Below, piece after piece: positions 6,063-52,987 of a stretch of DNA of 64,000 nucleotides. The notes beneath the pieces were generated by a model, which was not told the DNA's origin, made no database searches, and saw only the letters and a list, made by a program, of their open reading frames with translations. The translations under genes were made by a program, and so were the position numbers. The stretch's first letter is position 1. Every line of letters starts with the position of its first letter. The stretch is from a virus: IMG/VR virus record IMGVR_UViG_3300014656_000015; one strand, written 5' to 3'.

Positions 6063-6809
6063 CTACAGCTGAGCCAGACCGCACCTTACTGCACACATCG
6101 CACAATCCGCTTCATGGTCATCCCAGACCAGTGACTCGGACCCACATCGTGGGCAAAGTGCCCGGTTCAGACCACTGTACGTCGGCCAGAGCTCCTGTAT
6201 CCTGCCCTCAGCCACCTCCGCTATCTCACGTTCGATCAAGCCCATGCGAAGCATTTCCCGCAGGAAGACAGCCTCGGCCAGCTCGGCATGCCACGGGACA
6301 ATCCTTCGCTCGAGCCGCTTTGCCGGCGTCACCGACCCCCACATCTCGTGATCGAACAGGTCCCGCTGCTCCGTCAGGAGCAGCATCAGGGCAGCGTTGT
6401 GGACCTCAGGATAGAGGTCATTGAGCGAGTGATCCAGCTTGAACCGGAGCGTGATCGCGTCGAGTATCGCGGTCTCGTACTCCTCAAAGAAGCTCAGCGG
6501 GTTGGGCTGATCCCCGAGTAGATCAGCGATGCTGACCATATACACCGTGACCGCATCGTAGAGCAGGGCCTGTTGCAACCAGGAATGTTTGGCATTAGGG
6601 CTCGGAGTATCCCGGATCCGTTGCACCTGGCGCATGACCCTGACGCTGTGCTCGGCCATCGAGTAGAACGTTCGACACTGACCACCAAATCGACAGGTCA
6701 GGGCCAGGCCATGTGCAATGTCGAACGGATCCACGAGATCGGCGTGAATCATGCTCGTATCCATCGGAAACTTCCGACCGGTGAAGGTCGGTATCCACAC
6801 ACGTCTCAT
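6063..6809 (-). CDS. HD-fold (YfbR-like deoxynucleotidase) protein with C-terminal Zn ribbon
   Basis: DIAHGLALTCRFGG, YSMAEHS, ALLYDA (HD replaced by YD), TEQRDL; C-terminal CPRC..CAMC. Confidence 0.75.
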   Translation of the reverse strand: MRRVWIPTFTGRKFPMDTSMIHADLVDPFDIAHGLALTCRFGGQCRTFYSMAEHSVRVMRQVQRIRDTPSPNAKHSWLQQALLYDAVTVYMVSIADLLGDQPNPLSFFEEYETAILDAITLRFKLDHSLNDLYPEVHNAALMLLLTEQRDLFDHEMWGSVTPAKRLERRIVPWHAELAEAVFLREMLRMGLIEREIAEVAEGRIQELWPTYSGLNRALCPRCGSESLVWDDHEADCAMCAVRCGLAQL

Positions 6810-6813
6810 CTTG

Positions 6814-7359
6814 TCACCCCTCCACCACCTTGAAGACGGGAATCTTGGGCTCGTCGGGTAGCGCCGCCTCGAGAAGCTCCTGCACCCGCTTTTGCCACCC
6901 CACGCTGCGCGGGCTCTTGCGCCCGGTAAACCTCATGATACAAAGGGCCCGCCGGACACAATCCAGCTCATCATCGACGAGGGCAATGCCCCCGGAACCA
7001 TCACCACGGAAGCTGAGGATCCGGAGGTTGTATCCATCCGTACCATCATTCGGGGCACAGTACACCTTCTCCGGATCCATGGAGCCATCCCCGACATCCC
7101 AACGACAATAGTGGAGCCCCCAGCCCTGAAGCTCTGTCTCGAGATCCACCAGAACGCCGTATGGGGCCTCGGGGTCCCAGAGGGCGAGGTGTCCGTCACG
7201 GTCCACCGCCGCCAGGAGATCGGTCTCTCCTCGTGGGTCGAACTCCTCCAGATGTTCCGCCTGCAAACCATCACGGCAGATGAGCTCGACCAGGTCCGGA
7301 ACCTTGGATCGGGGCAGCTCGCCTCCGATCACGATGTGGCCAGCATATCGGTTACTCAT
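6814..7359 (-). CDS. hypothetical phage protein
   Basis: GGAAAGGA RBS before MSNRYAGH. Confidence 0.6.
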   Translation of the reverse strand: MSNRYAGHIVIGGELPRSKVPDLVELICRDGLQAEHLEEFDPRGETDLLAAVDRDGHLALWDPEAPYGVLVDLETELQGWGLHYCRWDVGDGSMDPEKVYCAPNDGTDGYNLRILSFRGDGSGGIALVDDELDCVRRALCIMRFTGRKSPRSVGWQKRVQELLEAALPDEPKIPVFKVVEG

Positions 7360-7568
7360 TCCTTTCCTCCGCAACGTGAAGGTAGAGGGTTCGCTTCGAG
7401 ACCTCCTCGGACTCGGCACGGTTCAGTGCAACGACCCGGAGCGGGTCGATCCTCTCCTTCACCGCACCGGCCTCGTCCAGCAGAAGATAGGCTCGACCCA
7501 GGACGATCAGGTCGCTTCGCACCGCCATCCGCATCTCGTCGTCCGGGACCAGATCGTTGAGATCGAGC

Positions 7569-7919
7569 TCAGTCGTTGTCATCGTCCACCTCCTTGATAT
7601 CCTCCACCCGATACTGAACGCTCAGCACCAGGGTGGCCTCCGATGCACGGGTCAGCCGCCCATCCACGGGGCTGTGTCGAGCCTCCCGGGACTGGCTGAC
7701 CCGCCACTTCGCGTCCTTGCTCCGCAACGCACGCTCCACCACCTGGAGCGTGCTCCGGATCAGCTGCTCATGCTGCTCGGGGGTTGGCTCCTCAGCCTCC
7801 CACGCCGTCCCCAGCGGCTCCCCAACATCGATCTTCTTGAACTCGGCCCGAGCCAGCTCGATGGAGGCCGCGGCCCTGGCCAGCTCCTTCCGGATTCCAT
7901 CCAGTATCGTTGACATCAC
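7569..7919 (-). CDS. hypothetical phage protein
   Basis: GAGGAGGAAG RBS; operon packing. Confidence 0.6.
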   Translation of the reverse strand: MMSTILDGIRKELARAAASIELARAEFKKIDVGEPLGTAWEAEEPTPEQHEQLIRSTLQVVERALRSKDAKWRVSQSREARHSPVDGRLTRASEATLVLSVQYRVEDIKEVDDDND

Positions 7920-8103
7920 TCTTCCTCCTCGTCTCCGACCTCACGCATATCCTCGACGAGCTGCTCGAGACCAGGTCGGGGACTCGTCACAGCATCGATG
8001 TGCTTGAAGCTCATCTCCCCACCACAAGCCATGCAGCGCCCATCACTCGCTCGAGCAACGTGGCAGTCGCAGTCCACACAGACCTTGGTTTCGATCTCCA
8101 TCA

Positions 8104-8663
<560 letters not shown>

Positions 8664-8667
<4 letters not shown>

Positions 8668-8945
8668 GATTCCACCGACTCGTAGGTCGCCTCGAAGATG
8701 TCGACCGTGCACGGGTAGATCTCACCATGGACGCCTCGGACCACGTAGTCGCCTCGACAGGCAACCATGAATCCATCGAGCGTCATGATCTCCAACCACC
8801 CCTGAGGTGCGAACTGGACCGAGCCGTCGTCGCCCCAACGCTTCCCCATCGCTTCAACGATCCAGTGTGGATCGTCCAACTGATCAACATCTCCAGTCCA
8901 CAGGAACGCTTCGACGACCACCGGCTTTTTTCGGTATTTCATCAT
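8664..8945 (-). CDS. conserved phage protein (KYRKKPVVVEA / GDY family)
   Basis: MKYRKKPVVVEA...TLDG...GDYVVRGVHGEIYPC..DIFEATYE signature. Confidence 0.85.
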
Positions 8946-9159
8946 TTCTCCTCTACAGGCGCTGGCTCACCCTTACCACCTACGAGATCCTCCTCTTCGT
9001 GTTCGTGCAGAACCCAGCTACCATCGAGCTTCTGGCCAAGGAGGTCCATCATCGTACCGGCACGTACACCACGGTAGAGCTCCCCCTCGATCACGTGGAG
9101 GATGTCCGCCAGGTCCGGGAGCTCCACGTCCCGAACCGTCAGCACGAATCTGTACTGAG

Positions 9160-9408
9160 TCATCGACCACACTCCTCGAGAAGAAGGCGTGCACCCTCCT
9201 CTCCGTAGCTCCCCAGGACCGCCTCGTAGACCAGGGTGCGCACGCACTCCTCAGGGCTGTTGCCGTCGTTGAAGCAGTCCCAGAGCAACATGTCCTCGAG
9301 ATCGAAGAGGCCAACCCCGATGGCCGCCTCCACGATCTCGTCAACCTCGTCGAGCCACTGCTCGAACTCCGTGTCCCCACCCGCATAGTCCTTGGATCTC
9401 TCACTCAT
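9160..9408 (-). CDS. small acidic phage protein
   Basis: GGAGGAAAG RBS. Confidence 0.6.
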   Translation of the reverse strand: MSERSKDYAGGDTEFEQWLDEVDEIVEAAIGVGLFDLEDMLLWDCFNDGNSPEECVRTLVYEAVLGSYGEEGARLLLEECGR

Positions 9409-9598
9409 CTCTTTCCTCCCTTCCGTTTCGGATCGTAGCCGACTTCACCAGCAAAACCATCCTTGAACCGGTTCCGGGTCGTCATGACCGCGGCCAGCAA
9501 CAACCGCATCTCCTCCTCCGTGGCACCGGTCCTGTCCTGCGCCGCACCCAAGGACAGAGAGAGCACGTCCCCGGACCACGTGTTCTGGACCAGGGCCC

Positions 9599-9877
9599 TC
9601 ACGAACTCGAGGAGGACTTCGGGTCGGAGCGACGGTCCACAATCGGTTCCCGGCGCCAACTGTTCAGACCGCTGCAACATCCCTCCCCGATAGCCAAGGC
9701 CCGGCTCGGGTCGAACCCTGTCTTCTCCCGATCCAGCACGGGCCCGCACCAGTGCCGACCCGTCTCGAACCGCAAACCGCGACATGGTGCCTCCTCTCCA
9801 AAGAGCTGAACGCCGAGCACGCAGGGCACGAGCGTGCAACAGAAACCACAGCCCACACAGGGCCTGACCCTATCCAT
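9599..9877 (-). CDS. CxxCxxCC (YkgJ-like) Fe-S/Zn protein
   Basis: PCVGCGFCC motif. Confidence 0.65.
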   Translation of the reverse strand: MDRVRPCVGCGFCCTLVPCVLGVQLFGEEAPCRGLRFETGRHWCGPVLDREKTGFDPSRALAIGEGCCSGLNSWRREPIVDRRSDPKSSSSS

Positions 9878-10143
9878 CCTCTCCCTCCTTCACCGGCACC
9901 AACAGATCCTCAGCGACATGCACGAAGACCTGACCGCGCCGAGATGGAGTGCCGCTCCGCAACAATCTCCGCTGCACATCCTCCACCAGATGCGCACCGT
10001 AGGCCCGGAACTGACCAACGTGGGTGCCCCGCAACCAGACTCGCTGCCCCGGATACGCCTCGGACCACGGGAGCGCCCGCCAGTCCGACTCCTCATAAAT
10101 GTCTGACATGACTCTCCTTTCCACCTCAATTGGTGCGCCAGGG

Positions 10144-10180
10144 GCCTTATAACAAAAAGTGGCGGATCTCGTTATAAGGC
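10144..10180. promoter_or_regulatory. back-to-back GTTATAAG promoters
   Basis: GCCTTATAAC-17nt-GTTATAAGGC perfect inverted pair at the strand switch. Confidence 0.65.
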
Positions 10181-10239
10181 TCATGTAATCCGGAATTAGC
10201 CGGATTCATTGGCATGTACCACCAACAAAGGAGACAGAC

Positions 10240-11106
10240 ATGCCACGACAGAAGCAGGAGCCCAAGGAGCGGGCCCCGAAGCCACAGTGGCCCCAGGGTC
10301 CGGAGGACCTGCTCGACATCCTCAAGCGGAGGAATCGAGACATCTACGTTGAATTCGAGGTGGCCTGTGACGTCATCTCGAAGATCGTCGGGGGCACACC
10401 CAGATTGCTCGAGGCCATCTTCGCCCTGATCGACACCAGGGTGAAGCAGGGCAAGCTCAGCCCCGAGGAGGGGGAGCGGATCAAACTCGAGGTGCGGAAG
10501 CAGCACGAGGAGAAGGACAAGGCGAACCGGCTCCTCTACGAGGCTGAGATGGTGGCACGGGAGAACACGGGGGAGGACGTGGACCCGGAGAACCTACCCA
10601 CTAGCGCCCGCGCCATCGAGGCGAGCTGGAACACGTTCTGGCAGGACCCGATGGGTCTCTACCTGGAGACCCGAACCATCAAGAGCACGTTGCGGGACGT
10701 GTTCAGCGCCCTGCAGAAGTTCACGCCGGCGAACCGGAAGAAGGTCGGGCACAACTTCGGGCTCTACATCGAGGCCCCACCGGAGTCCCCGCACCGGGAC
10801 CGGGTCTACCTCTACCGGGGCGGAAGCGTGATCCAGAGGCCCGACACGTTCGAGGACAGGCCCGTCCTCATCAAGGGGGAGCACCCTCGAACCGCGCTGA
10901 AGCGCAACGACGTGATCTACGGCAAGGAGGAGGGAGAGGGATACGGCTGCCAGTTCGGCTTCAAGGTGAAGGTGCTCCGGGATGGCCCCCTGACCCACGA
11001 GGACATCGTGGACGGGCTCGCGCTCCTCATGGACCGCGGCCTGGGGGCGGCCGTTTCCCAGGGAAACGGGAAATGGGAGCCGCTGCACTTCCAGCGGCTC
11101 GGTTGA
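10240..11106 (+). CDS. stand-alone RAMP / Cas7 (Csm3-like) family protein
   Basis: N-terminal strand and IVGGTP; LYLETRTIKSTLRD (compare IPGSSLKGxLR); C-terminal G-rich loop GLGAAVSQGNGKW; no other cas genes in the window. Confidence 0.75.
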   Translation: MPRQKQEPKERAPKPQWPQGPEDLLDILKRRNRDIYVEFEVACDVISKIVGGTPRLLEAIFALIDTRVKQGKLSPEEGERIKLEVRKQHEEKDKANRLLYEAEMVARENTGEDVDPENLPTSARAIEASWNTFWQDPMGLYLETRTIKSTLRDVFSALQKFTPANRKKVGHNFGLYIEAPPESPHRDRVYLYRGGSVIQRPDTFEDRPVLIKGEHPRTALKRNDVIYGKEEGEGYGCQFGFKVKVLRDGPLTHEDIVDGLALLMDRGLGAAVSQGNGKWEPLHFQRLG

Positions 11107-11630
11107 TCGAAACCAGATCTGGATGACAATCTAAGCTAACCTAATCTGATCTGCTGACGATCTTGCCCGCTCAAGACGTTTCTGGCCGGATGACCCCCTA
11201 GGCCGAGCCGAGCCAAGACGTCCCACGACAAACTGCTGACGTACTCAACGGAACCTCGCTGGACTCGTCCCTGGTCACCGACAAACCGCTACCGACTCAA
11301 CGAACCACACACAATCCATACACACCGCTGCTGGTGACTGACGATCCGATGCGATCACAGGTGACAACCTCGACCGATCTCTGCACAGCATGGCCTCAGG
11401 TCATCGACTCGCCGCCCCACGCCACCCGAGTCGGGTCAAGGGAATCCTGCCGATTCTCTGCTCGGAGCGGAACCACGCACGGGCTTCTGACTCGCCACCC
11501 CGAGACACTCCTGGCGGCCCAACACACTGCCGACGCACCGCTCCGCGCTATGCACGGACACGCCTGGCTTCTGACATGCCACGCCGCTCCGCGCAGAACT
11601 CACGCCAACTAGGACCAGACAAACCCCACC
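11107..11630 (+). ncRNA. putative guide-RNA array of 5-nt periodic units separated by YGAC
   Basis: C at every fifth base within units, e.g. ctaag ctaac ctaat ctgat ctgct; cttgc ccgct caaga cgttt ctggc cggat. The phase resets after each YGAC+3 nt. No credible ORF or RBS. Confidence 0.65.
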
Positions 11631-11660
11631 ACGAGGAACCATTCTGGTTCCTCGTCTTAG
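11631..11660 (+). terminator. hairpin + CTTAG closing the RAMP/array unit
   Basis: Perfect 11-bp stem ACGAGGAACCA-ttc-TGGTTCCTCGT, then CTTAG. Confidence 0.7.
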
Positions 11661-11712
11661 CTATCTAAGGGAAGTGGCTCGGAGGTGAGCCGGGAATAGA
11701 AGGCTGGAGGGA

Positions 11713-12042
11713 TCAGTGGGGACAGCGACTGGTGCCCCCATCCGTTAACAGACGCACCGTTGTTTGCACCATTGCATCGAGCCAGCCCCGACCGGCGAAC
11801 GTACCGTGATGCACGAAACGTCCCCATGAGGGTGCCCAGTGGTCGATCCACAACGCATGCAGGGTTCGAGTACCGGGCCAAATCTGCACACGGAGCGCCA
11901 CGTTCCGATCGCTAGGATGTGACCGTTCCGCGACAAACTTGACCGTTGGACGGGGCCACGACGGCTGGACAACCATCCGGATATCGGTCCCCGCATCACG
12001 CAGGGCACAGTTGAGCCGGTCCAACGTATCCGCTGCTCGCAT
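11713..12042 (-). CDS. hypothetical phage protein
   Basis: AAGGAGG RBS; last gene of a minus-strand unit. Confidence 0.6.
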   Translation of the reverse strand: MRAADTLDRLNCALRDAGTDIRMVVQPSWPRPTVKFVAERSHPSDRNVALRVQIWPGTRTLHALWIDHWAPSWGRFVHHGTFAGRGWLDAMVQTTVRLLTDGGTSRCPH

Positions 12043-12723
12043 CTATGTGTCCTCCTTATCTACCCACTCCGGCGGGCGCTCCGGAATCACACCGGCGTCG
12101 TGACGGATGCGGGCGTGCTCGATCAAAGGGTCGTCGCAATCCTTGCCGAACCACTCCCGAATGATGGCTCGTCCAACCGAGCCGATGTCGGCCTGTGCCA
12201 GATCCTTCCTGGTGAAGTCGGGCGCGGCGTGACCATAGAGCGCGGATATGGTTCGGTTCAGGGCAGCATCCTTTGCCGAGGCTGGCCCGAAATCGGACTC
12301 TATCCCATACCCGTACCGGGCCACGGTGATCCGGACCAGGGTAGGCCAATGGCCGGCCTTCATGATCCCGGCCCCGTAGTCCTCCCACTCCGAATCCTTG
12401 AACACGTTGCCCAGATCCGCACGGTGCCGCTCCAGCACGTCGAGCCGGCACAGGAACTCCTGCGGGGACAGGGTCCGAGCCGCCTCCAGATACTTCCACC
12501 GATCACAGCCCGAAACGGACCACCAGGATCGGGTATCGCGCCGGTCCGTGACGGCCTCGGTCAGCCTGAACGATTCGTACTGAGCCCGCGGATCGTTGTC
12601 ATCGTCCGGAGACCCATGGATCTCCCACTCGAACCCGACCCCGTTCTCCTCCAGGAGCTCGACGAGCCGGAACAGTGGCAGGCAGCCCTCTACCAGCTCT
12701 CCATCCGGAAATCTGTACTGCAT
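12043..12723 (-). CDS. hypothetical phage protein
   Basis: ATG at 12723 overlaps the upstream stop codon. Confidence 0.6.
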   Translation of the reverse strand: MQYRFPDGELVEGCLPLFRLVELLEENGVGFEWEIHGSPDDDNDPRAQYESFRLTEAVTDRRDTRSWWSVSGCDRWKYLEAARTLSPQEFLCRLDVLERHRADLGNVFKDSEWEDYGAGIMKAGHWPTLVRITVARYGYGIESDFGPASAKDAALNRTISALYGHAAPDFTRKDLAQADIGSVGRAIIREWFGKDCDDPLIEHARIRHDAGVIPERPPEWVDKEDT

Positions 12724-13140
12724 TACTCCAACCTTACCCTTCTCGAGTTGCTCCGAGCCGCCCCAAGCGCCCACTCCGGCGCGTCCTCGGTCACCGTCAT
12801 CAGGAAGTAGGGACGCCCGATCCCATCCAGCTTGAGATCATCGAAGCCGGGCTGCCCCCACTCCTCCCGAAACGCCTCTATCTCTTCCTCAGTCGCCTCC
12901 CGCAGCCAGGTCTCGTTCTCGAGCTCGGCACAGCCCTCGGCCCCGAGCCACAACGTAATGGTCATCATTCCTCCTCTTCAACAAATGGTCTGCCGCCTCC
13001 ACCTGCAGACCTCGGTGTGCTGCAGCACGACCGGAGCCCCTCCATATGCACTCCGGGCTCAATCCAACTACCGCTTCTGTGGCGGCCATGCGGGAACGGA
13101 TGGGGGGAGCACCCGCTGGCATGGCGCAGAGAAGCGATCC

Positions 13141-13644
13141 CTAGGGCACCTCGACCCCGGCAGCCTCGAGCGCGGCAGCCACGTGGGCCTTGCAGGACGC
13201 ATAGTGCTCCGGGAAGGCACCACCGAGGCTCTGTTCATAGAGCCCCAGAGATGCGAGCTTGTCCATGACCAGATAGACCGCTGGATCACCAGCAGCCCCA
13301 TCGGAGCACTTCGCATCTTCACAGGCCCGGTCCACGAGCCGGACCAGGAGCCGGGCCACCCCTCTGGAGTTCGAGGCGTCCTGCACCTCGATGGCCAGCT
13401 TGCTGGCCTGGATCTCGGTCATCCGAGGCTGCTCCGACCGTTCCGGATCCGTCAGCTTCTGCGCCACGGTTGAGGCCAGCCTTTTCACTCTCGGAATCAA
13501 GTCATGGATCCGGTTCTCCACCAGATCCATGAAGTGGGGATGAGACCGATCCCGTTGGTACTCGTTGAGCAACAGCTCCTCCAGCTGATCGACCACATCC
13601 ACCACCTTGTCCCAGTCCTCTTTCGGGCTCAGGTTCTCAGCCAT
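13141..13644 (-). CDS. hypothetical phage protein
   Basis: GGAGG RBS; helical composition. Confidence 0.6.
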   Translation of the reverse strand: MAENLSPKEDWDKVVDVVDQLEELLLNEYQRDRSHPHFMDLVENRIHDLIPRVKRLASTVAQKLTDPERSEQPRMTEIQASKLAIEVQDASNSRGVARLLVRLVDRACEDAKCSDGAAGDPAVYLVMDKLASLGLYEQSLGGAFPEHYASCKAHVAAALEAAGVEVP

Positions 13645-14105
13645 GGCATACCTCCATCATCATTCTCCGTTTTGATCCAGTGCTTCACGGTCGACTTCAG
13701 ATCCAACTCGTCCCACTGCACGAAGGGGTGAGAAAACAGGATTTTATGGAAGGGTGTGTAGGTGGTGCGACCCGCCCGCGCAACCCAGGACGCGAAATGC
13801 GGCGGGAAGACGGGCAGGAGCAGGGGCACCACGATCACGGGAGGGTACTCACCGGGATCGGGCCACACGAAGACGAAGAACAGCACTACTGCCAGGAAAA
13901 GGTGAAGTAGGGAGTAGCCCGTCCAGCACCCCAACCTGAACGCGTTGTGGCGAGTCCGCACCAGCAGGTAGGGTGCGATCAGGAAGAGGGGGATGGTAAG
14001 CGTGACTACAAGACCGGCTAGCGCACCCAGAGGAAGTCTCCGATCCCGCTCCGGCGGAGGAGCCGACACGACCTCGGCCGGCGTGCGAAACGGTCCACTA
14101 CTCAT
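13629..14105 (-). CDS. multi-pass membrane protein
   Basis: 2-3 hydrophobic segments. Confidence 0.6.
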   Translation of the reverse strand: MSSGPFRTPAEVVSAPPPERDRRLPLGALAGLVVTLTIPLFLIAPYLLVRTRHNAFRLGCWTGYSLLHLFLAVVLFFVFVWPDPGEYPPVIVVPLLLPVFPPHFASWVARAGRTTYTPFHKILFSHPFVQWDELDLKSTVKHWIKTENDDGGMPWLRT

Positions 14106-15043
14106 GGTTCGTCCCCCCACGGCACATCTGGCCCACCCCCCTCACGTCGCGCGCCGTAGCAGCCGACGCGCTGCCACCGCTCCAGCTCACGAAGCGCAGC
14201 CTCCCCCGCACCGGCGTTGTGTGTTGGCACGGACTCGGCGGAAAGCAGAGCGAGCCGCTCGGCGAGGACCTGGTCCGGTAGCACGGCGTAGGGGCCAGCG
14301 TCGATCCGCAGCGCGTGGAGGAGTACCTTGCACCGGTCCCACTCCTGGGCCCGCGTCGTATCGGGGTTCGACCCGACACTCGTGTACGTCTCGATCCGCC
14401 GTCTTCGCCAGTTGTCAGCATCCCGGGCAGCAGCCAGGTAGCAGTACGTGAAGGCACGGAGGACATCTGCCGGACGCGGACCAACCCAACGTGAGGCGTG
14501 AAAGATGCAGTCGAGGACGGAGTGCGCCTCCGTAGGGGCCGAGGATTTGGCACGGGGTTGCTGCAGCGCTTCGATCAGTGCAGCCTTGCTCGAAGCCGCA
14601 ACGGAGACCGGATTCGTGGAGGTCTCGACGTCGAATCGCATCAAGGGCCGAGGCGCCTCGAGCCTCTCCAGCTCAAAGATGTGCCGGCTGAGGGCCGCGG
14701 CGTCGACACGCACATATCCCTCCGCCTCATACGCCACACCCCTACCTACAAGATCATGGGCTATGGCCACCCACACGGTCCTGCCCACAGCAGCAAGAGC
14801 TGTGCCGAGCCCCTCCTCCCAACCCTCTGGGCTGAAGAAACGGCGCTCCTTCCATGCGTCGATGCGGCTCCGCAGCAAAGCCGTACATGCAGCTAACTGC
14901 TTGTCGACGGGCACCACGGGCTCAATCAAGTTGAACCCCGTCAGGAACCGGGGCACCGCTGCATGGCAGTAGTAACGATGGAGAGTGGCATCGACACATG
15001 CATACCACCTCTCCTCCTGTGCTTCCGCGATATCTCTGCTCAT
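14102..15043 (-). CDS. hypothetical protein, paralog of 22397-23425
   Basis: Shared block TEAHSVLDC.F.AS.W.GPRP..VLRA...CYLAAAR. Confidence 0.7.
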   Translation of the reverse strand: MSRDIAEAQEERWYACVDATLHRYYCHAAVPRFLTGFNLIEPVVPVDKQLAACTALLRSRIDAWKERRFFSPEGWEEGLGTALAAVGRTVWVAIAHDLVGRGVAYEAEGYVRVDAAALSRHIFELERLEAPRPLMRFDVETSTNPVSVAASSKAALIEALQQPRAKSSAPTEAHSVLDCIFHASRWVGPRPADVLRAFTYCYLAAARDADNWRRRRIETYTSVGSNPDTTRAQEWDRCKVLLHALRIDAGPYAVLPDQVLAERLALLSAESVPTHNAGAGEAALRELERWQRVGCYGARREGGGPDVPWGDEP

Positions 15044-15678
15044 GTCTCCTTGCTCCTTTCCGTCCAACCATTGCGGGCACCAATCGCCGTCTTGTCCCAC
15101 GGACCCGTCGCGGCACAGCTCCGACAGAGCCCATAGTACATGGGAACGCTGTCGGGGAGGTGCCTGATGACGATGTTGGCCGCACCCCCGCAGAAGGGGC
15201 AGGCCGACTCGAGATCGGCGACGTGTTGCGGGGAGTCCCCCCTACCATCCATTGCCCTGAAGGACGCGCAGCGGGGGCAGGAGTGGACGTAGAGCGTCGT
15301 CCCCTCGGCCTTGGCCTCCAGCTCCTGCCCACAGTGCTTGCATTCAACGTAGATCTCCACAGGTATCGCAACGAGTACCATCGAGCTCCTCCCTCCTCCG
15401 ACCTCCGCGTCGCGGGCTATGTCCACTCGAATGCTCTGCCGGATGGCCTCCCTGCATGCCTCCTGTGGCGTCACCCCATCATCACCGGCAATCATGCGTA
15501 TGTACGCGGCGAGACCGCCACGAACCTTCGCGGACACCGGTGTGGGGTCATAGGGAGAAACGAGAAAGAGCTCACACTCCCGATCGCTCTCCGTGAGCTG
15601 TTTCGGCCCCTTGATGCTGTGTGCGACGCCGTCCCAAGACACGACCTCGTCGTTGCCGACACGCGTTCCTCCGCCCAT
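15040..15678 (-). CDS. Zn-finger protein with C-terminal Lar-like module
   Basis: CKHC, CPRC, then ACPFCGG...CRSCAATGP...WTER. Confidence 0.6.
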   Translation of the reverse strand: MGGGTRVGNDEVVSWDGVAHSIKGPKQLTESDRECELFLVSPYDPTPVSAKVRGGLAAYIRMIAGDDGVTPQEACREAIRQSIRVDIARDAEVGGGRSSMVLVAIPVEIYVECKHCGQELEAKAEGTTLYVHSCPRCASFRAMDGRGDSPQHVADLESACPFCGGAANIVIRHLPDSVPMYYGLCRSCAATGPWDKTAIGARNGWTERSKET

Positions 15679-16315: not shown

Positions 16316-16680
16316 GGTGGACCCAAGGGGAATCGAACCCCTGTCCAGACAGATTCAGGCGGTAGGCTCTACGTGCGTAGAGCTGGATCAATCTTGAGAC
16401 CGATGAGCTCCAGCCCGGCTCGCCGGTCCCCAGGTGCGGATGAAGCCCCGCGGTACGCAGATGAAGTCAGCACCAACCACTCCATCACCGCGGTCCACTC
16501 AATGACGCCCAGATCCAGGCCGTGGCACTCCTGGTTGGACGGGCACCTATGCCGCGAGGCGCAGTGCCGGATAATCGTCACGGTTGGCGATTGAGTTTTC
16601 GTCGTAGGGATCATGGGGTCCACGACACCCCCAGCACGCTCCCACAGCCATCCTCTACCTGTCGAAACCAATTTGGGCCC
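16316..16680 (-). ncRNA. ssrA: tmRNA (SsrA), ~365 nt, tag ANRDDYPALRLAA*
   Basis: 5' GGGCCCA..TTCGAC; 3' T-arm GGGGTTCGATTCCCC then TGGGTCCACC; G3:U70 alanine pair; tag frame 16588-16547 ends in LAA-TAG. Confidence 0.95.
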
Positions 16681-27655: not shown

Positions 27656-28061
27656 TATTCACCCCGACTCCAGACCTTCTTCACTCGGTATCCTTTCTCT
27701 TCAACCGATCCCGTTTCACCAACCAACGAACGCCGCGGCCAAAGAGGTCGGCCATCCTTTCCTTCAAGTCGTGGGGGAAGGAGAGCACCGCCGCGGTCTC
27801 CGCCGAGAGGTAGGAGGAGTCCCCACCCAGGTCGGCTCGAGAACCGTAGCAACGAACGTCTCCGTCCAGCACGGGTCCACGCGCCGTTGTCCGAGTATAG
27901 AGACTGCCCAGGGTCATGATGAGCTCGGGCTCCCCCACGGTATCGGGCGGGACAATGGCACGAAACTGAAACCGTTCGATCCCCCCAACCCCGACCTGAC
28001 GAACGACCTCCAACTGAATCTCGTACTGGTCCACTACATTCCATCCCAACATCGACATGTA

Positions 28062-28364
28062 TCACCCATCCTTACGCTTCGGCACCGCGAAGATCAGGTA
28101 AGTCTCCTCACCCACCTGCGTCAGATCGGGCTGGGCCGTCCCGCACAGCACCAGGAGTGCGTCGAATGTGGGATTCAACGCACGGTTCACCGGCCGTGGC
28201 GCCCAACTGCCCCGAGTCACCTCGATGGCACGAATCTCGAGCTCGGTACCCAGTACATGAGGACCAGCCGTACCATCCGACGTGACCAGACGGTACTCAC
28301 CCGGACCTACTCGCTCCCATCGCCCACTGAAGCTCAGCTGCACCAGGTGCGTCCTACCCTCCAT
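28062..28364 (-). CDS. hypothetical protein, paralog of 26343-26645
   Basis: Same pattern as its paralog. Confidence 0.6.
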   Translation of the reverse strand: MEGRTHLVQLSFSGRWERVGPGEYRLVTSDGTAGPHVLGTELEIRAIEVTRGSWAPRPVNRALNPTFDALLVLCGTAQPDLTQVGEETYLIFAVPKRKDG

Positions 28365-29001
28365 CTCACCCTCCTCTGTTCCGGGACAACGCCTCCCGGA
28401 TAGCCTCCGCGATCAATCGACGCAGCTCGCGCATAGACGCACCGCGCGGCGCCAGCAGCCCTCCGGGGAGGGTACGGAGCCACGCCTTGACCACCTTGTC
28501 CGCCAGACCATCGGGATCCGGCAAGTAGTCCGAGGCCCGCAACCCCTTCTTCGGATCCAGCTCCTTGCTACTGACTGTCCCCACTATCATGGGCACCTCC
28601 TTCGTTACCAGTACACCGCTTATACCTGACTAAGGGAGAAATCCCCGGTACAGGCTGGTAGGGTACCGGGGATCGAAGGACTAGCCTCGGATGGGCTCGA
28701 GCGGCTGGAAGCGGTCCGGGGACCGCCAGGCCTCTAGCTGCAGCGCGGCCGTGACCCGCTCCACGAACCCGTGCAGGTCCGGGTCCTTCGGGCTCATGTA
28801 GAGCCCGGGACCCGACACGGACACCTGCACCTCGCACCGCTTCCCCAGGAGCCGCCTCCTCAACTCCTGCTCGAAAAGCGACACCGTGTTCGGGGGCAGA
28901 ACGCCAGGGTTCACGACCACGCGTACACCACGATCCTCCATCCCACTCTCCTTTCCATACCGGTAGTGGTTCGATACCGGTCTCGGAGAGCTTATATCGG
29001 A

Positions 29002-29457
29002 TCAAGTGGGGAACTTGCTCCGGAACCTCGCGCAGCCATCCTCCTTCCCCGCCGGCTTCTCGTACCGTGGGGAGTCGACCAGGCCACACTTCCAGGGTCC
29101 ATCGCGGTCGTCGAGGTGTGCACAGTGGAAGCAGGAAGGTTTCACATGAAACGCGAAGACCTCGTGTGTGCTCCCATCCAGATCCATGACCTGGATCGGG
29201 TTGAGGCGGAATAGGCCGCCACCGGCATAGTTGCAGGGACGGTGGGTACCCGACACATCGGACCTCTCCACCACTGTACCGAGCCACCGACCCACACAGC
29301 TGAAGGCCACCGCGTTATCCGGGGCGCCGGCGTCGGGCCAGTCCTGCGCCCGAGCCACGTGACCGCAGACCGGACAGACGAACTCCCACTGTCGCCGGTC
29401 CTCCCCGAAGAGCCGGATGCCCAGCTCCTCCCACTCCTCACGTTCCATCGTGATCAT
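29002..29457 (-). CDS. VVA0879-like phage protein
   Basis: WEFVCPVCGH...FSCVGR...CNYAGGGLF. Confidence 0.75.
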   Translation of the reverse strand: MITMEREEWEELGIRLFGEDRRQWEFVCPVCGHVARAQDWPDAGAPDNAVAFSCVGRWLGTVVERSDVSGTHRPCNYAGGGLFRLNPIQVMDLDGSTHEVFAFHVKPSCFHCAHLDDRDGPWKCGLVDSPRYEKPAGKEDGCARFRSKFPT

Positions 29458-51612: not shown

Positions 51613-52680
51613 CTATGTCTCGATGCTCGGCCGATACTCGTCCCGAGTCATATCCCAGGTCCACGCCACGGCATCCGACGCCGTCTGCACATCAGGAGGT
51701 ACTCGAAGCAGATACCGACGCCGGATACCGTCGTGCTCCGTCGCATCGGTAACCTCGACCGCGACCAGCGGCTCGTCATCGGGCAGCTCCAACCGATAGA
51801 GGCAGCCCCGTTCGTCACGGGACACGACCCGCGCCCCGTCCAGGACTCGCTCCAGCCCGACCCTCTCGATCATGACACGCCGAATCTCAGCGTTAGACTC
51901 ACTCAACACCTCGTCTCGGGTCAGCTCGTCGGAGCACAGGATCACCCGTTCCGGTACCCGAACCCCGTGCCAAGCGTAAACACCCCAACCATCGGGGTAA
52001 CCAATAGCCAGGGCATCGGGACAGTGAAGCCGACCGCGCTCATCGAGATGGAGCGAGGTCGGCAGTGGGGTCACCACAGCAACATCGCTGCATGGCCACC
52101 ACCACCCGATCAGCGAAGCGAGCCGGATCAACCCATCCAGCGGTGAGATGTCGATCCCGCAAACCTCACCGAAATAAATATAGAATCCAAGCCAGGGCGC
52201 ATCATGCACCCCGTAGGCAACCCAATTGACCGAGTCCCAGACCACGGCCCGAACCGAGTCCAGGACCGAGCCCCAAACCGAGTCCAGGACCGAGCCCCGA
52301 ACCGAGTCCAGGACCGAGTCCAGGACCGAGTCCAGGACCGAGGCCCGGACCGAGGCCCGGACCGAGCCCCGGACCGAGTCCAGGACCGAGGCCCGGACCG
52401 AGGCCCGGACCGAGGCCAGGACCGAGGCCAGGACCGAGGCCCGGACCGAGAAGCTACGGAGCACTACGGTACAAAGCACACCGGCCATCGGCGATGTGCT
52501 CTTCACTATCTGTGTCGGAGGCAGTAGGCCACCGGCCCGGTAGGCAGCGTTGATCGCTGGGCGAACCCGACGCAGGTCGATTCGACCGTCTCCCGTCGCT
52601 AGGCCGATCCGGGTCCAACGCTCGGCATAGACCGGCAGGAGCGCCTCCTGCTCAGAAGTCAGTGCCTCAATCCGCGACAC
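51613..52680 (-). CDS. DUF6745-like protein with SVxx tetrapeptide repeats
   Basis: LTSEQEALL; GWWWP...LHCPDALAI.YPDGWGVYAWHGVRVP; NAEIRRVMIE; LRVPP...AVAWT. Confidence 0.8.
   Translation of the reverse strand: MSRIEALTSEQEALLPVYAERWTRIGLATGDGRIDLRRVRPAINAAYRAGGLLPPTQIVKSTSPMAGVLCTVVLRSFSVRASVLASVLASVRASVRASVLDSVRGSVRASVRASVLDSVLDSVLDSVRGSVLDSVWGSVLDSVRAVVWDSVNWVAYGVHDAPWLGFYIYFGEVCGIDISPLDGLIRLASLIGWWWPCSDVAVVTPLPTSLHLDERGRLHCPDALAIGYPDGWGVYAWHGVRVPERVILCSDELTRDEVLSESNAEIRRVMIERVGLERVLDGARVVSRDERGCLYRLELPDDEPLVAVEVTDATEHDGIRRRYLLRVPPDVQTASDAVAWTWDMTRDEYRPSIET
52228..52449 (-). repeat. 12-nt tandem repeat (~18 units: SVRA/SVLD/SVRG)
   Basis: Visible directly as ggaccgag(t/g/c)cc units. Confidence 0.95.
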
Positions 52681-52987
52681 GACGAAGCTCCGTGGGGTGA
52701 TACTCCCGCTGCCGCACCACCCGGTACAGGCCCGGATCGAGGTCGATCCAGGCGTGCTCCTCATGCTCCAGCCGCGTTGCCTCACGCACCCGAAGCAGCA
52801 TTGCGGCCTGCGCGACGTAGAGCGCCGCCGCGATGGCGGGGACCGCATGGGCGTGCCCCGTCGCCTCGCCCTCCGCGAGAATCAGCCGGCCACGCCCGTC
52901 CGGCTCGACCTCGGTGTACTCCTCGGACATCTCGCTCTCGTCCATCCGGACAAGCAGCACGTCTCCCTGTCTCACCTGCTTCATCAT
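52667..52987 (-). CDS. conserved partner of DUF6745-like proteins
   Basis: RQGDVLL...LAEGEATGHAH...HEEH...PGLYRVVRQREY...RRVAD. Confidence 0.85.
   Translation of the reverse strand: MMKQVRQGDVLLVRMDESEMSEEYTEVEPDGRGRLILAEGEATGHAHAVPAIAAALYVAQAAMLLRVREATRLEHEEHAWIDLDPGLYRVVRQREYHPTELRRVAD

What the first reader, a model, noticed from the sequence alone, without database searches (positions are those of the whole stretch)
11107..11630. Array grammar: YGAC + 3 nt + (C-NNNN)n units
Seen: boundary motifs end at about 11127, 11158, 11194, 11240, 11282, 11342, 11365, 11408, 11454 (CGAT), 11491, 11534, 11575 and 11620 (AGAC), giving units mostly 31-46 nt (range 23-60). Examples: TGAC gta ctcaa cggaa cctcg ctgga ctcgt ccctg gtcac CGAC; TGAC aac ctcga ccgat ctctg cacag catgg cctca ggtca tCGAC; CGAC gca ccgct ccgcg ctatg cacgg acacg cctgg cttc TGAC. 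By hand count about 69 of 82 in-phase pentamers start with C, and most exceptions have C in position 2. Unit ends recur (CTGCYGAC, GGTCAYCGAC, GGCTTCTGAC, GGATGAC). Two adjacent units share ccgctccgcgc, suggesting growth by duplication and then diversification. Inference: YGAC is a processing or handle motif and each unit is one guide.
Basis: seen in the sequence. Interest (0 to 1): 0.85.

Follow-up and report, generated by a model that had tools for sequence, protein, structure and literature searches.

The report
Phage VIPR guide-RNA array, C-anchored
The 524-base stretch is the guide-RNA array of a VIPR system, a CRISPR-related phage weapon first described in 2026, and it differs from the published ones in that each five-base step is anchored by one C instead of GGY and the array is cut into short units by a YGAC mark.

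Summary
Region 11107-11630 is non-coding and C-rich. C recurs every 5 nt (z 4.6 against dinucleotide shuffles).

Nine of ten relatives' loci with DNA on hand (22-68% identity, among them cultured Microcystis phage Mae-JY09) carry a 5-nt C-periodic array. The C is always on the gene's strand. The arrays do not align with one another.

This is therefore a VIPR locus (bioRxiv 10.64898/2026.04.26.720920): Vipr protein plus a vrRNA array. The scan already holds 34 VIPR findings in at least 32 other genomes.

What differs here:
- a single fixed C per pentamer on the sense strand, not GGY/NN
- short units (23-60 nt) set off by YGAC, with no structured tails
- no conserved accessory gene
- a larger Vipr with a helical insert

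Still unproven: the transcribed strand (sense about 0.7), processing at YGAC, the pairing code and the targets.

It is a variant of a known kind, of moderate interest.

The parts
10145..10179 (.). Inverted pair of TTATAAGG (10145-10152 on the minus strand, 10172-10179 on the plus strand) in the 55-nt gap between the divergent genes. It is a candidate divergent promoter or hairpin at the head of the vipr unit.
   Evidence: These are the only two copies in 64 kb; 0.09 are expected by chance. Sequence. The function is inferred.
10240..11106 (+). vipr gene: 288-aa Cas7-like RAMP with a GGAG ribosome-binding site 8 nt upstream. Features are the G-rich loop G267-L-G-AAVSQ-G-N-G277, a beta-hairpin at 203-226 at the position of the thumb, and a helical insert at 57-128 that SUSP1 Vipr lacks.
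11107..11630 (+). vrRNA array: about 12-13 units of 23-60 nt, each written YGAC + 3 nt + (C-NNNN) x 4-10. Composition is C 38%, G 23%. The sense strand is inferred.
   Evidence: A 175-nt contig from an RNA library covers 11109-11283 only.
11631..11655 (+). Perfect 11-bp hairpin with a 3-nt loop that closes the unit, followed by CTTAGCTATCTAAG. It is the presumed terminator of the vipr-array transcript.
   Evidence: (I2). Relatives have like-placed hairpins at the far end of the array: L001, L005 and Mae-JY09. There is no T run, so termination is inferred.

Best explanation
Region 11107-11630 is the guide-RNA (vrRNA) array of a divergent VIPR system, and its protein gene is the ORF just upstream (10240-11106).

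The most likely course of events is as follows.
1. The gene and the array are transcribed together on the plus strand, from the gap at 10185-10239 to the hairpin at 11631-11655.
2. Vipr protomers, which are Cas7-like, polymerise along the RNA, one per pentamer. Each grips the fixed C and leaves the other bases free to read double-stranded DNA of a rival mobile element. That element is then silenced, as shown for SUSP1.
3. The YGAC marks reset the register every 23-60 nt. They probably delimit about 12 separate guides laid end to end, as in the published 'staggered' arrays.

Shown here: the fold and homology of the protein, the periodicity and its register, and the conservation of the gene-array pairing.

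Inferred: the transcribed strand, processing at YGAC, one protomer per pentamer, which bases pair, and the targets.
For: Protein:
- It is a RAMP by fold and by family HMM hits.
- Its family profile matches the SUSP1 Vipr family profile.

Periodicity:
- The 5-nt C periodicity is significant here.
- It recurs beside relatives of 22-68% identity: L001 z 4.0, L005 z 9.3, L007 z 5.5, L011 z 8.9, L013 z 9.3, L014 z 7.3, L015 z 2.2 and Mae-JY09 z 5.4.
- The arrays themselves do not align with one another.

Strand and transcription:
- The C strand is the gene's strand in 9 of 9 loci.
- In five of these loci every neighbouring gene runs the same way.
- Here and in L001 and L005, vipr alone is inverted among minus-strand genes, and the array polarity follows vipr.
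- In SUSP1 the YNNGG tracts lie on the vipr strand.
- A metatranscriptome contig covers 11109-11283 and nothing else of the 2.2 kb laid.

Turnover:
- In related strain X5 the gene pieces are 94.8-96.8% identical, but the array is mostly unlike.

Published mechanism: 10.64898/2026.04.26.720920 and 10.64898/2026.04.26.720927.

Binding residues: the SUSP1 residues that bind the two Gs (D177, W178, R138) align to A, a variable residue, and D in this family. This fits loss of the GG.
Against: - No strand-specific RNA data exist. The RNA-library contig may be carried-over DNA.
- The sense-strand consensus C-NNNN is not among the published consensus forms (GGY/NN, NNNGG, YNNNG, NNNNG, GAC/NN, CAC/NN and others).
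- There is no repeated structured 3' tail.
- No conserved accessory gene was found.
- YGAC is not over-represented in this array. It is neither enriched nor in register in the two closest relatives.
- The residue equivalent to SUSP1 R179, which holds the pyrimidine, is R in over 90% of the family but V in this protein.
- Three exact gapped-pattern scans of IMG/VR found no target.
Confidence: 0.8

Rival explanations
1. It is the same VIPR system, but the guides are transcribed from the minus strand. They then read (NNNNG)n, or yNNrG, which is a published variant consensus, and each tract is followed by GTCR as a minimal 3' end.
For: Read on the minus strand, the window gives Y 0.59, G4 0.47 and G5 0.73, which is closer to YNNGG than the sense reading. 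All published variant consensus forms keep a 3' G (section 20 of 10.64898/2026.04.26.720920). In SUSP1 the invariable part lies 3' of the tract. Most genes around the window's locus are on the minus strand. The L005 hairpin has the better T run on the minus strand.
Against: In 9 of 9 loci the C strand follows the vipr gene. In five of them all neighbouring genes are co-directional with it, so minus-strand guides would run against the whole transcription flow. SUSP1 guides are sense to vipr. The L001 hairpin has its pyrimidine tail on the plus strand. The G-binding residues of SUSP1 Vipr are not conserved.
Confidence: 0.2
2. It is a periodic RNA bound by the RAMP protein but not a set of guides. 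It would be a scaffold or decoy that loads or titrates Vipr filaments (its own or a rival's) without sequence-specific targets.
For: Only the C and the composition are conserved. Units hold as few as 4-5 pentamers, which gives little specificity under the published 2-of-5 code. Satellites use solo vrRNAs as decoys (10.64898/2026.10.15.759431). No targets were found.
Against: Fast turnover of the variable bases between strains and between relatives is what guides show. A decoy would need only a few repeats, not 0.5-1.5 kb arrays. The target scans were too narrow to count as a test.
Confidence: 0.07
3. It is an ordinary C-rich, G-poor 3' untranslated region, for example a Rho loading site or a product of composition drift, and the periodicity is incidental.
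For: C over G skew and weak structure are typical of Rho loading sites. YGAC is at chance frequency.
Against: The lag-5 signal exceeds all 2000 shuffles. It is conserved beside diverged homologues of a RAMP protein, in arrays with 27-49% C, and in L013 upstream of the gene. Rho sites have no 5-nt register.
Confidence: 0.02
4. It is a protein-coding or decayed coding region. Two 92-aa ORFs lie at 11334-11612 and 11390-11668.
For: Open frames exist. Source pipelines called 'genes' on the arrays of L011 and L001.
Against: The period is 5, not 3. G- or T-poor sequence gives long ORFs by chance. The window and L001 arrays share no similarity although the flanking gene product is 68% identical.
Confidence: 0.01

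Closest known systems
VIPR systems (Vipr + vrRNA), bioRxiv 10.64898/2026.04.26.720920; type II exemplar Escherichia phage SUSP1 (KT454805: vipr 28474-29061, vap 28031-28471)
   Same: Both are phage-encoded and have a lone small RAMP with a G-loop and thumb. Both have no CRISPR repeats and no cas genes. In both, long non-coding flanks are written in 5-nt repeats on the gene's strand and are hypervariable between relatives. The protein profiles are homologous.
   Different: The anchor is one C per pentamer, not GGY. There is no structured 3' tail of about 40 nt. Units are 23-60 nt, not about 100 nt. No vap gene is recognisable. The protein has 288 aa against 195, with a helical insert at 57-128. 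The SUSP1 residues that bind GG are not kept.
Staggered vrRNA arrays and variant repeat consensus forms (fig. S18 legend and section 20 of the same preprint); non-canonical VIPR clusters such as GAC/NN and CAC/NN (10.64898/2026.10.21.760802)
   Same: Guides are laid end to end without tails, and the end of one marks the start of the next. One- or two-letter anchors and non-GGY motifs are accepted as VIPR.
   Different: The published variants keep a G at the 3' end of the pentamer or fix a trinucleotide. Here only C is fixed on the sense strand, plus a clade-specific second base (CC, CA or CG). Those texts do not describe a YGAC register mark.
Class 1 CRISPR Cas7 backbones (Csm3, Cmr4, type VII Cas7)
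   Different: The interval is 5 nt, not 6. There are no CRISPR repeats, no Cas5, Cas6 or Cas10, and no adaptation genes. The guides are genome-encoded, not acquired.
Earlier finding of this scan, e1-5485894 (archaeal mobile element)
   Same: A lone Cas7-like gene with units of about 40 nt in 5-nt steps, whose fixed letter is C on the gene's own strand.
   Different: It lies in another genome and domain of hosts. I did not compare the sequences.

Membership tests
VIPR system | Sequence homology to an experimentally characterised Vipr (SUSP1). | tested here: met
   hhalign of the 70-sequence family profile (A2) against the 36-sequence SUSP1 Vipr family profile (A3) gives probability 92.8%, E 3.9e-7 over 135 columns. 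Against the single SUSP1 sequence alone, E is 0.0055.
VIPR system | Non-CRISPR context: no CRISPR array and no other cas genes. | tested here: met
   The Rfam gathering scan of 64 kb finds only a tmRNA. There is no tandem repeat in 10900-12100. The nine neighbouring ORFs scanned around the locus (6063-15100) have no Cas hits.
VIPR system | The vipr gene is flanked by a long intergenic region with tandem 5-nt repeats. | tested here: met
   A 524-nt gap with lag-5 z 4.6. 65 of 77 phased pentamers start with C. The same holds in 8 further loci.
VIPR system | The repeat consensus is GGY/NN or a published variant (NNNGG, YNNNG, NNNNG). | tested here: inconclusive
   The sense strand gives C 0.73, G4 0.20 and G5 0.40, so it is C-NNNN and not a listed form. 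The minus strand would read NNNNG or yNNrG. The transcribed strand was not measured.
VIPR system (type II architecture) | Each vrRNA ends in an invariable structured 3' tail. | tested here: not met
   No repeated element longer than about 20 nt was found, only short unit-end motifs. SUSP1 tails are obvious by the same reading. This is compatible with the tail-less 'staggered' architecture.
VIPR system | An accessory vap gene stands next to vipr. | tested here: inconclusive
   No neighbour is shared between the window and loci L001, L005, L010, L011, L013, L014 and L015, and none resembles SUSP1 vap (BLASTP at 1e-3). The paper says VIPR loci 'typically' have vap, so it is not always present.
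VIPR system | The vrRNAs are expressed and bound by Vipr, and they target DNA by a gapped code. | not testable with these tools
   The only data are one 175-nt contig in an RNA library at 11109-11283 and three exact pattern scans without a hit.
CRISPR-Cas class 1 (type III or type I effector) | A CRISPR repeat-spacer array plus Cas5, the large subunit and Cas6. | tested here: not met
   No direct repeats of CRISPR type, no Rfam CRISPR-DR hit and no other cas genes near the locus.

The most novel reading that the evidence does not exclude
This clade of about 350 Vipr relatives uses a different recognition code. One flipped C per pentamer, sometimes with a clade-specific second base, would leave three or four bases free to pair. 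Units of 5-10 pentamers would then specify 15-30 nt. That would be a step between the published 2-of-5 VIPR code and the 5-of-6 code of CRISPR Cas7 filaments. YGAC would serve as a built-in unit delimiter that replaces the structured tail.
Probability: 0.25. Interest if true: 0.75.

Novelty: new variant of a known kind. Interest (0 to 1): 0.45.

Why it matters
VIPR is a months-old class of programmable RNA-guided DNA binders that has been proposed as the ancestor of CRISPR effectors.

A large, mostly metagenomic clade with a one-letter C anchor, tail-less short units and no accessory gene would widen the known codes. It would also bear on how a 5-nt gapped code could have become the 6-nt CRISPR register.

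One relative with CGAC-punctuated C-periodic units sits in a cultured phage, Microcystis phage Mae-JY09. That gives a direct experimental route.

For annotation, the arrays are called as hypothetical genes by source pipelines (L011 5469-6086, L001 6163-6405), and this can now be corrected.

Tried and rejected
Searches that found nothing:
- Pfam and PHROGs on the protein itself: no hit.
- blastn and tblastn against GenBank phages: nothing for the window's gene. The only hit was Mae-JY09, through relative P0015.
- IMG/VR scans for relatives: none. Alignment A2 was too diverse for pattern scans. The metagenome scan only re-found L005.
- No whole genome is held for this window.
- Target searches: exact gapped patterns for units U4 and U7 (every fifth base free) and U5 (published NNx rule) in IMG/VR gave 0 hits. 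Exact matching on one database is too narrow to say anything about targets.
- A simple scan for 8 of 8 in-phase C elsewhere in the window gave chance-level hits only, so no solo arrays were found.

Weak or superseded results:
- The first AF2 model, built from 5 sequences, was poor (pLDDT 56). It was replaced by the 70-sequence model.
- The RNA fold of the array has z -2.6, which is weak and uninformative.
- The sigma-70 promoter and terminator scan gave nothing usable.
- L001-L004 arrays are identical, so they give no substitution pattern.

Coverage limits:
- Runs X3 and X4 cover the stretch only in pieces that are identical to it. Parts of the array without cover in X4, X5 and X6 are not evidence of absence.

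Rejected leads:
- The lag-5 signal at 52230-52450 is a 15-nt tandem repeat inside a minus-strand gene, not an array.
- Rho-site, TRAP-like and nucleocapsid-like readings were considered before the VIPR papers were found. They were dropped because the protein is a Vipr homologue.
- The argument that the pyrimidine-holding Arg is kept was dropped for this protein: it has V272, although the wider family has R.

Full report
**1. The observation**

Region 11107-11630 begins directly after the stop codon of a plus-strand ORF (10240-11106) and ends at a perfect 11-bp hairpin (11631-11655). Its composition is C 38%, A 24%, G 23%, T 16%.

C recurs at lag 5: 100 pairs against 74.4 expected, z 4.6, and none of 2000 dinucleotide-preserving shuffles reaches it. 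At lag 10, z is 3.5. Fourier power at period 5 is flat because the phase slips.

- All 13 boundary motifs are present, and each is followed by 3 nt and then C.
- 65 of 77 pentamers start with C, and 9 of the 12 exceptions have C at position 2.
- Random boundaries on the same sequence give 0.38 +/- 0.07 (maximum 0.69), against 0.84 observed.

The recurrent unit ends and the shared CCGCTCCGCGC are real.

- YGAC is not more frequent than the dinucleotide content predicts (15 against 14.0). What is non-random is its register: C frequency at +7, +12, +17 and +22 is 0.77 against 0.39 +/- 0.07.
- Unit lengths do not step by 5.

**2. The neighbouring gene**

The 288-aa product has no Pfam or PHROG hit. 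A profile search nevertheless finds 357 relatives.

In a 70-member alignment (A2) the C-terminus reads GLGAxRSQGxGxF.
- 42 of 70 members hit Csm4 models (best E 3.6e-7), 23 hit Cas6 and 16 hit Csm3.
- NCBIfam gives Csm4 for 38 of 70.

With A2 as input the AlphaFold model reaches pLDDT 94.5.
- Foldseek's best matches are Cmr4, Csm3 and type VII Cas7, with E down to 7.6e-7.

**3. Comparative evidence**

I could fetch DNA for ten loci that encode relatives of 22-68% identity. Nine carry a non-coding stretch with 5-nt C periodicity, and the C is always on the gene's strand.

| Locus | Lag-5 z |
|---|---|
| L001 | 4.0 |
| L005 | 9.3 |
| L007 | 5.5 |
| L011 | 8.9 |
| L013 (upstream of the gene) | 9.3 |
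| L014 (1.5 kb array) | 7.3 |
| L015 | 2.2 |
| Microcystis phage Mae-JY09 | 5.4 |

C content ranges from 27% to 49%, so composition does not explain the signal.

The arrays themselves are not alignable, even between the window and L001, whose proteins are 68% identical. The second pentamer position is clade-specific: CC in L013, CA (95% A) in L011, CG in L007.

YGAC is enriched in L013 (z 3.4-3.5), L014 (z 4.1-4.2), L015 (z 3.5-3.8) and Mae-JY09 (z 2.9). It is in register in L013 and L014. In L001 and L005 it is neither enriched nor in register.

**4. What it is**

A literature search led to bioRxiv 10.64898/2026.04.26.720920. This preprint describes VIPR systems.
- They are phage-encoded.
- They have a lone ancestral RAMP (Vipr) flanked by long intergenic regions.
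- Those regions encode vrRNAs made of 9-16 tandem 5-nt repeats (YNNGG; variants NNNGG, YNNNG, NNNNG).
- They silence double-stranded DNA of rival elements through a gapped code.

The companion structure paper shows one protomer per repeat in a helical filament. The thumb flips the fixed bases. A later preprint reports 21 clusters with non-canonical motifs.

I fetched the SUSP1 locus. Its vipr gene (28474-29061) and its YNNGG tracts lie on the same strand. The family profile of SUSP1 Vipr (A3) matches A2 with probability 92.8%, E 3.9e-7 over 135 columns. The match includes the thumb segment and the G-loop.

The window's locus is therefore a VIPR system, and the finding is its vrRNA array. The scan had already filed 34 VIPR findings in at least 32 genomes. 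One of them (e1-5485894) has a C anchor on the gene strand.

**5. How this one differs**

- The anchor is a single C on the sense strand.
- There is no repeated structured tail.
- Units are short (23-60 nt) and are set off by YGAC.
- No neighbouring gene is conserved among relatives or resembles SUSP1 vap.
- The protein carries a helical insert at 57-128.

In the alignment, the SUSP1 residues that bind the two guanines (D177, W178, R138) face A, a variable residue, and D in this family. This fits loss of GG. The equivalent of R179, which holds the pyrimidine, is R in over 90% of the family but V in this protein. I give that argument little weight here.

**6. Strand**

No strand-specific data exist. 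I favour the sense strand (about 0.7) for four reasons.
- Array polarity follows vipr in 9 of 9 loci.
- In five loci all genes run the same way.
- Here and in L001 and L005, vipr alone is inverted among minus-strand genes and the array is inverted with it.
- SUSP1 guides are sense to vipr.

Against this, the minus strand reads closer to the published consensus.

**7. Expression and turnover hints**

In a groundwater metatranscriptome library (X6), one 175-nt contig matches 11109-11283 exactly, and nothing else of the 2.2 kb laid is covered. In related strain X5, the gene pieces are 94.8-96.8% identical. Of the array, only 11360-11422 and 11427-11451 align, with about 50 extra bases between them, and the contig is unlike the window before 11360, just ahead of a GTGAC mark. 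These are single contigs and only weak hints.

**8. Verdict**

Its details remain unproven: processing at YGAC and one guide per unit. This is a variant of the recently described VIPR class, not a new class.

Noticed in passing
window 16316-16680 (-): A phage-borne tmRNA gene (Rfam 115 bits; tag ANRDDYPALRLAA).
   Followed up: no
window 52230-52450: A tandem repeat of about 15 nt (GACCGAG[TG]CC[AC]GGAC-like) inside a long minus-strand ORF (51613-52848). It probably encodes a five-residue peptide repeat. It gives a lag-5 C signal unrelated to the array.
   Followed up: partly
window 11656-11670 and 11131-11137: The palindrome CTTAGCTATCTAAG stands right after the closing hairpin, and TCTAAGC stands near the array start. 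CTTAGC/TTTAGC-like tails also follow the hairpin in L001. This may be a phage-specific terminator or promoter signal.
   Followed up: no
L017 = Microcystis phage Mae-JY09 PP395641, 37713-38880: A cultured cyanophage carries a family member annotated as a hypothetical protein. It is followed by an unannotated C-rich array of about 410 nt with CGAC + 3 nt + (CNNNN)5 units and a 13-bp hairpin.
   Followed up: partly
L011 5469-6086; L001 6163-6405; L013 5660-5944: Source pipelines called protein genes on top of the periodic arrays. T- or G-poor sequence gives long open frames. These calls are probably spurious.
   Followed up: partly
window 11657-12042: A further 385 nt lie between the hairpin and the next minus-strand gene (12043-12774). 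They hold only an unsupported 109-aa ORF (11713-12042, minus strand), and their content is unexplained.
   Followed up: no
window 9599-9877 (-): A small Cys-rich ORF (CVGCGFCC...C...C) lies two genes upstream of vipr. It has no family hit and is not conserved beside relatives.
   Followed up: partly
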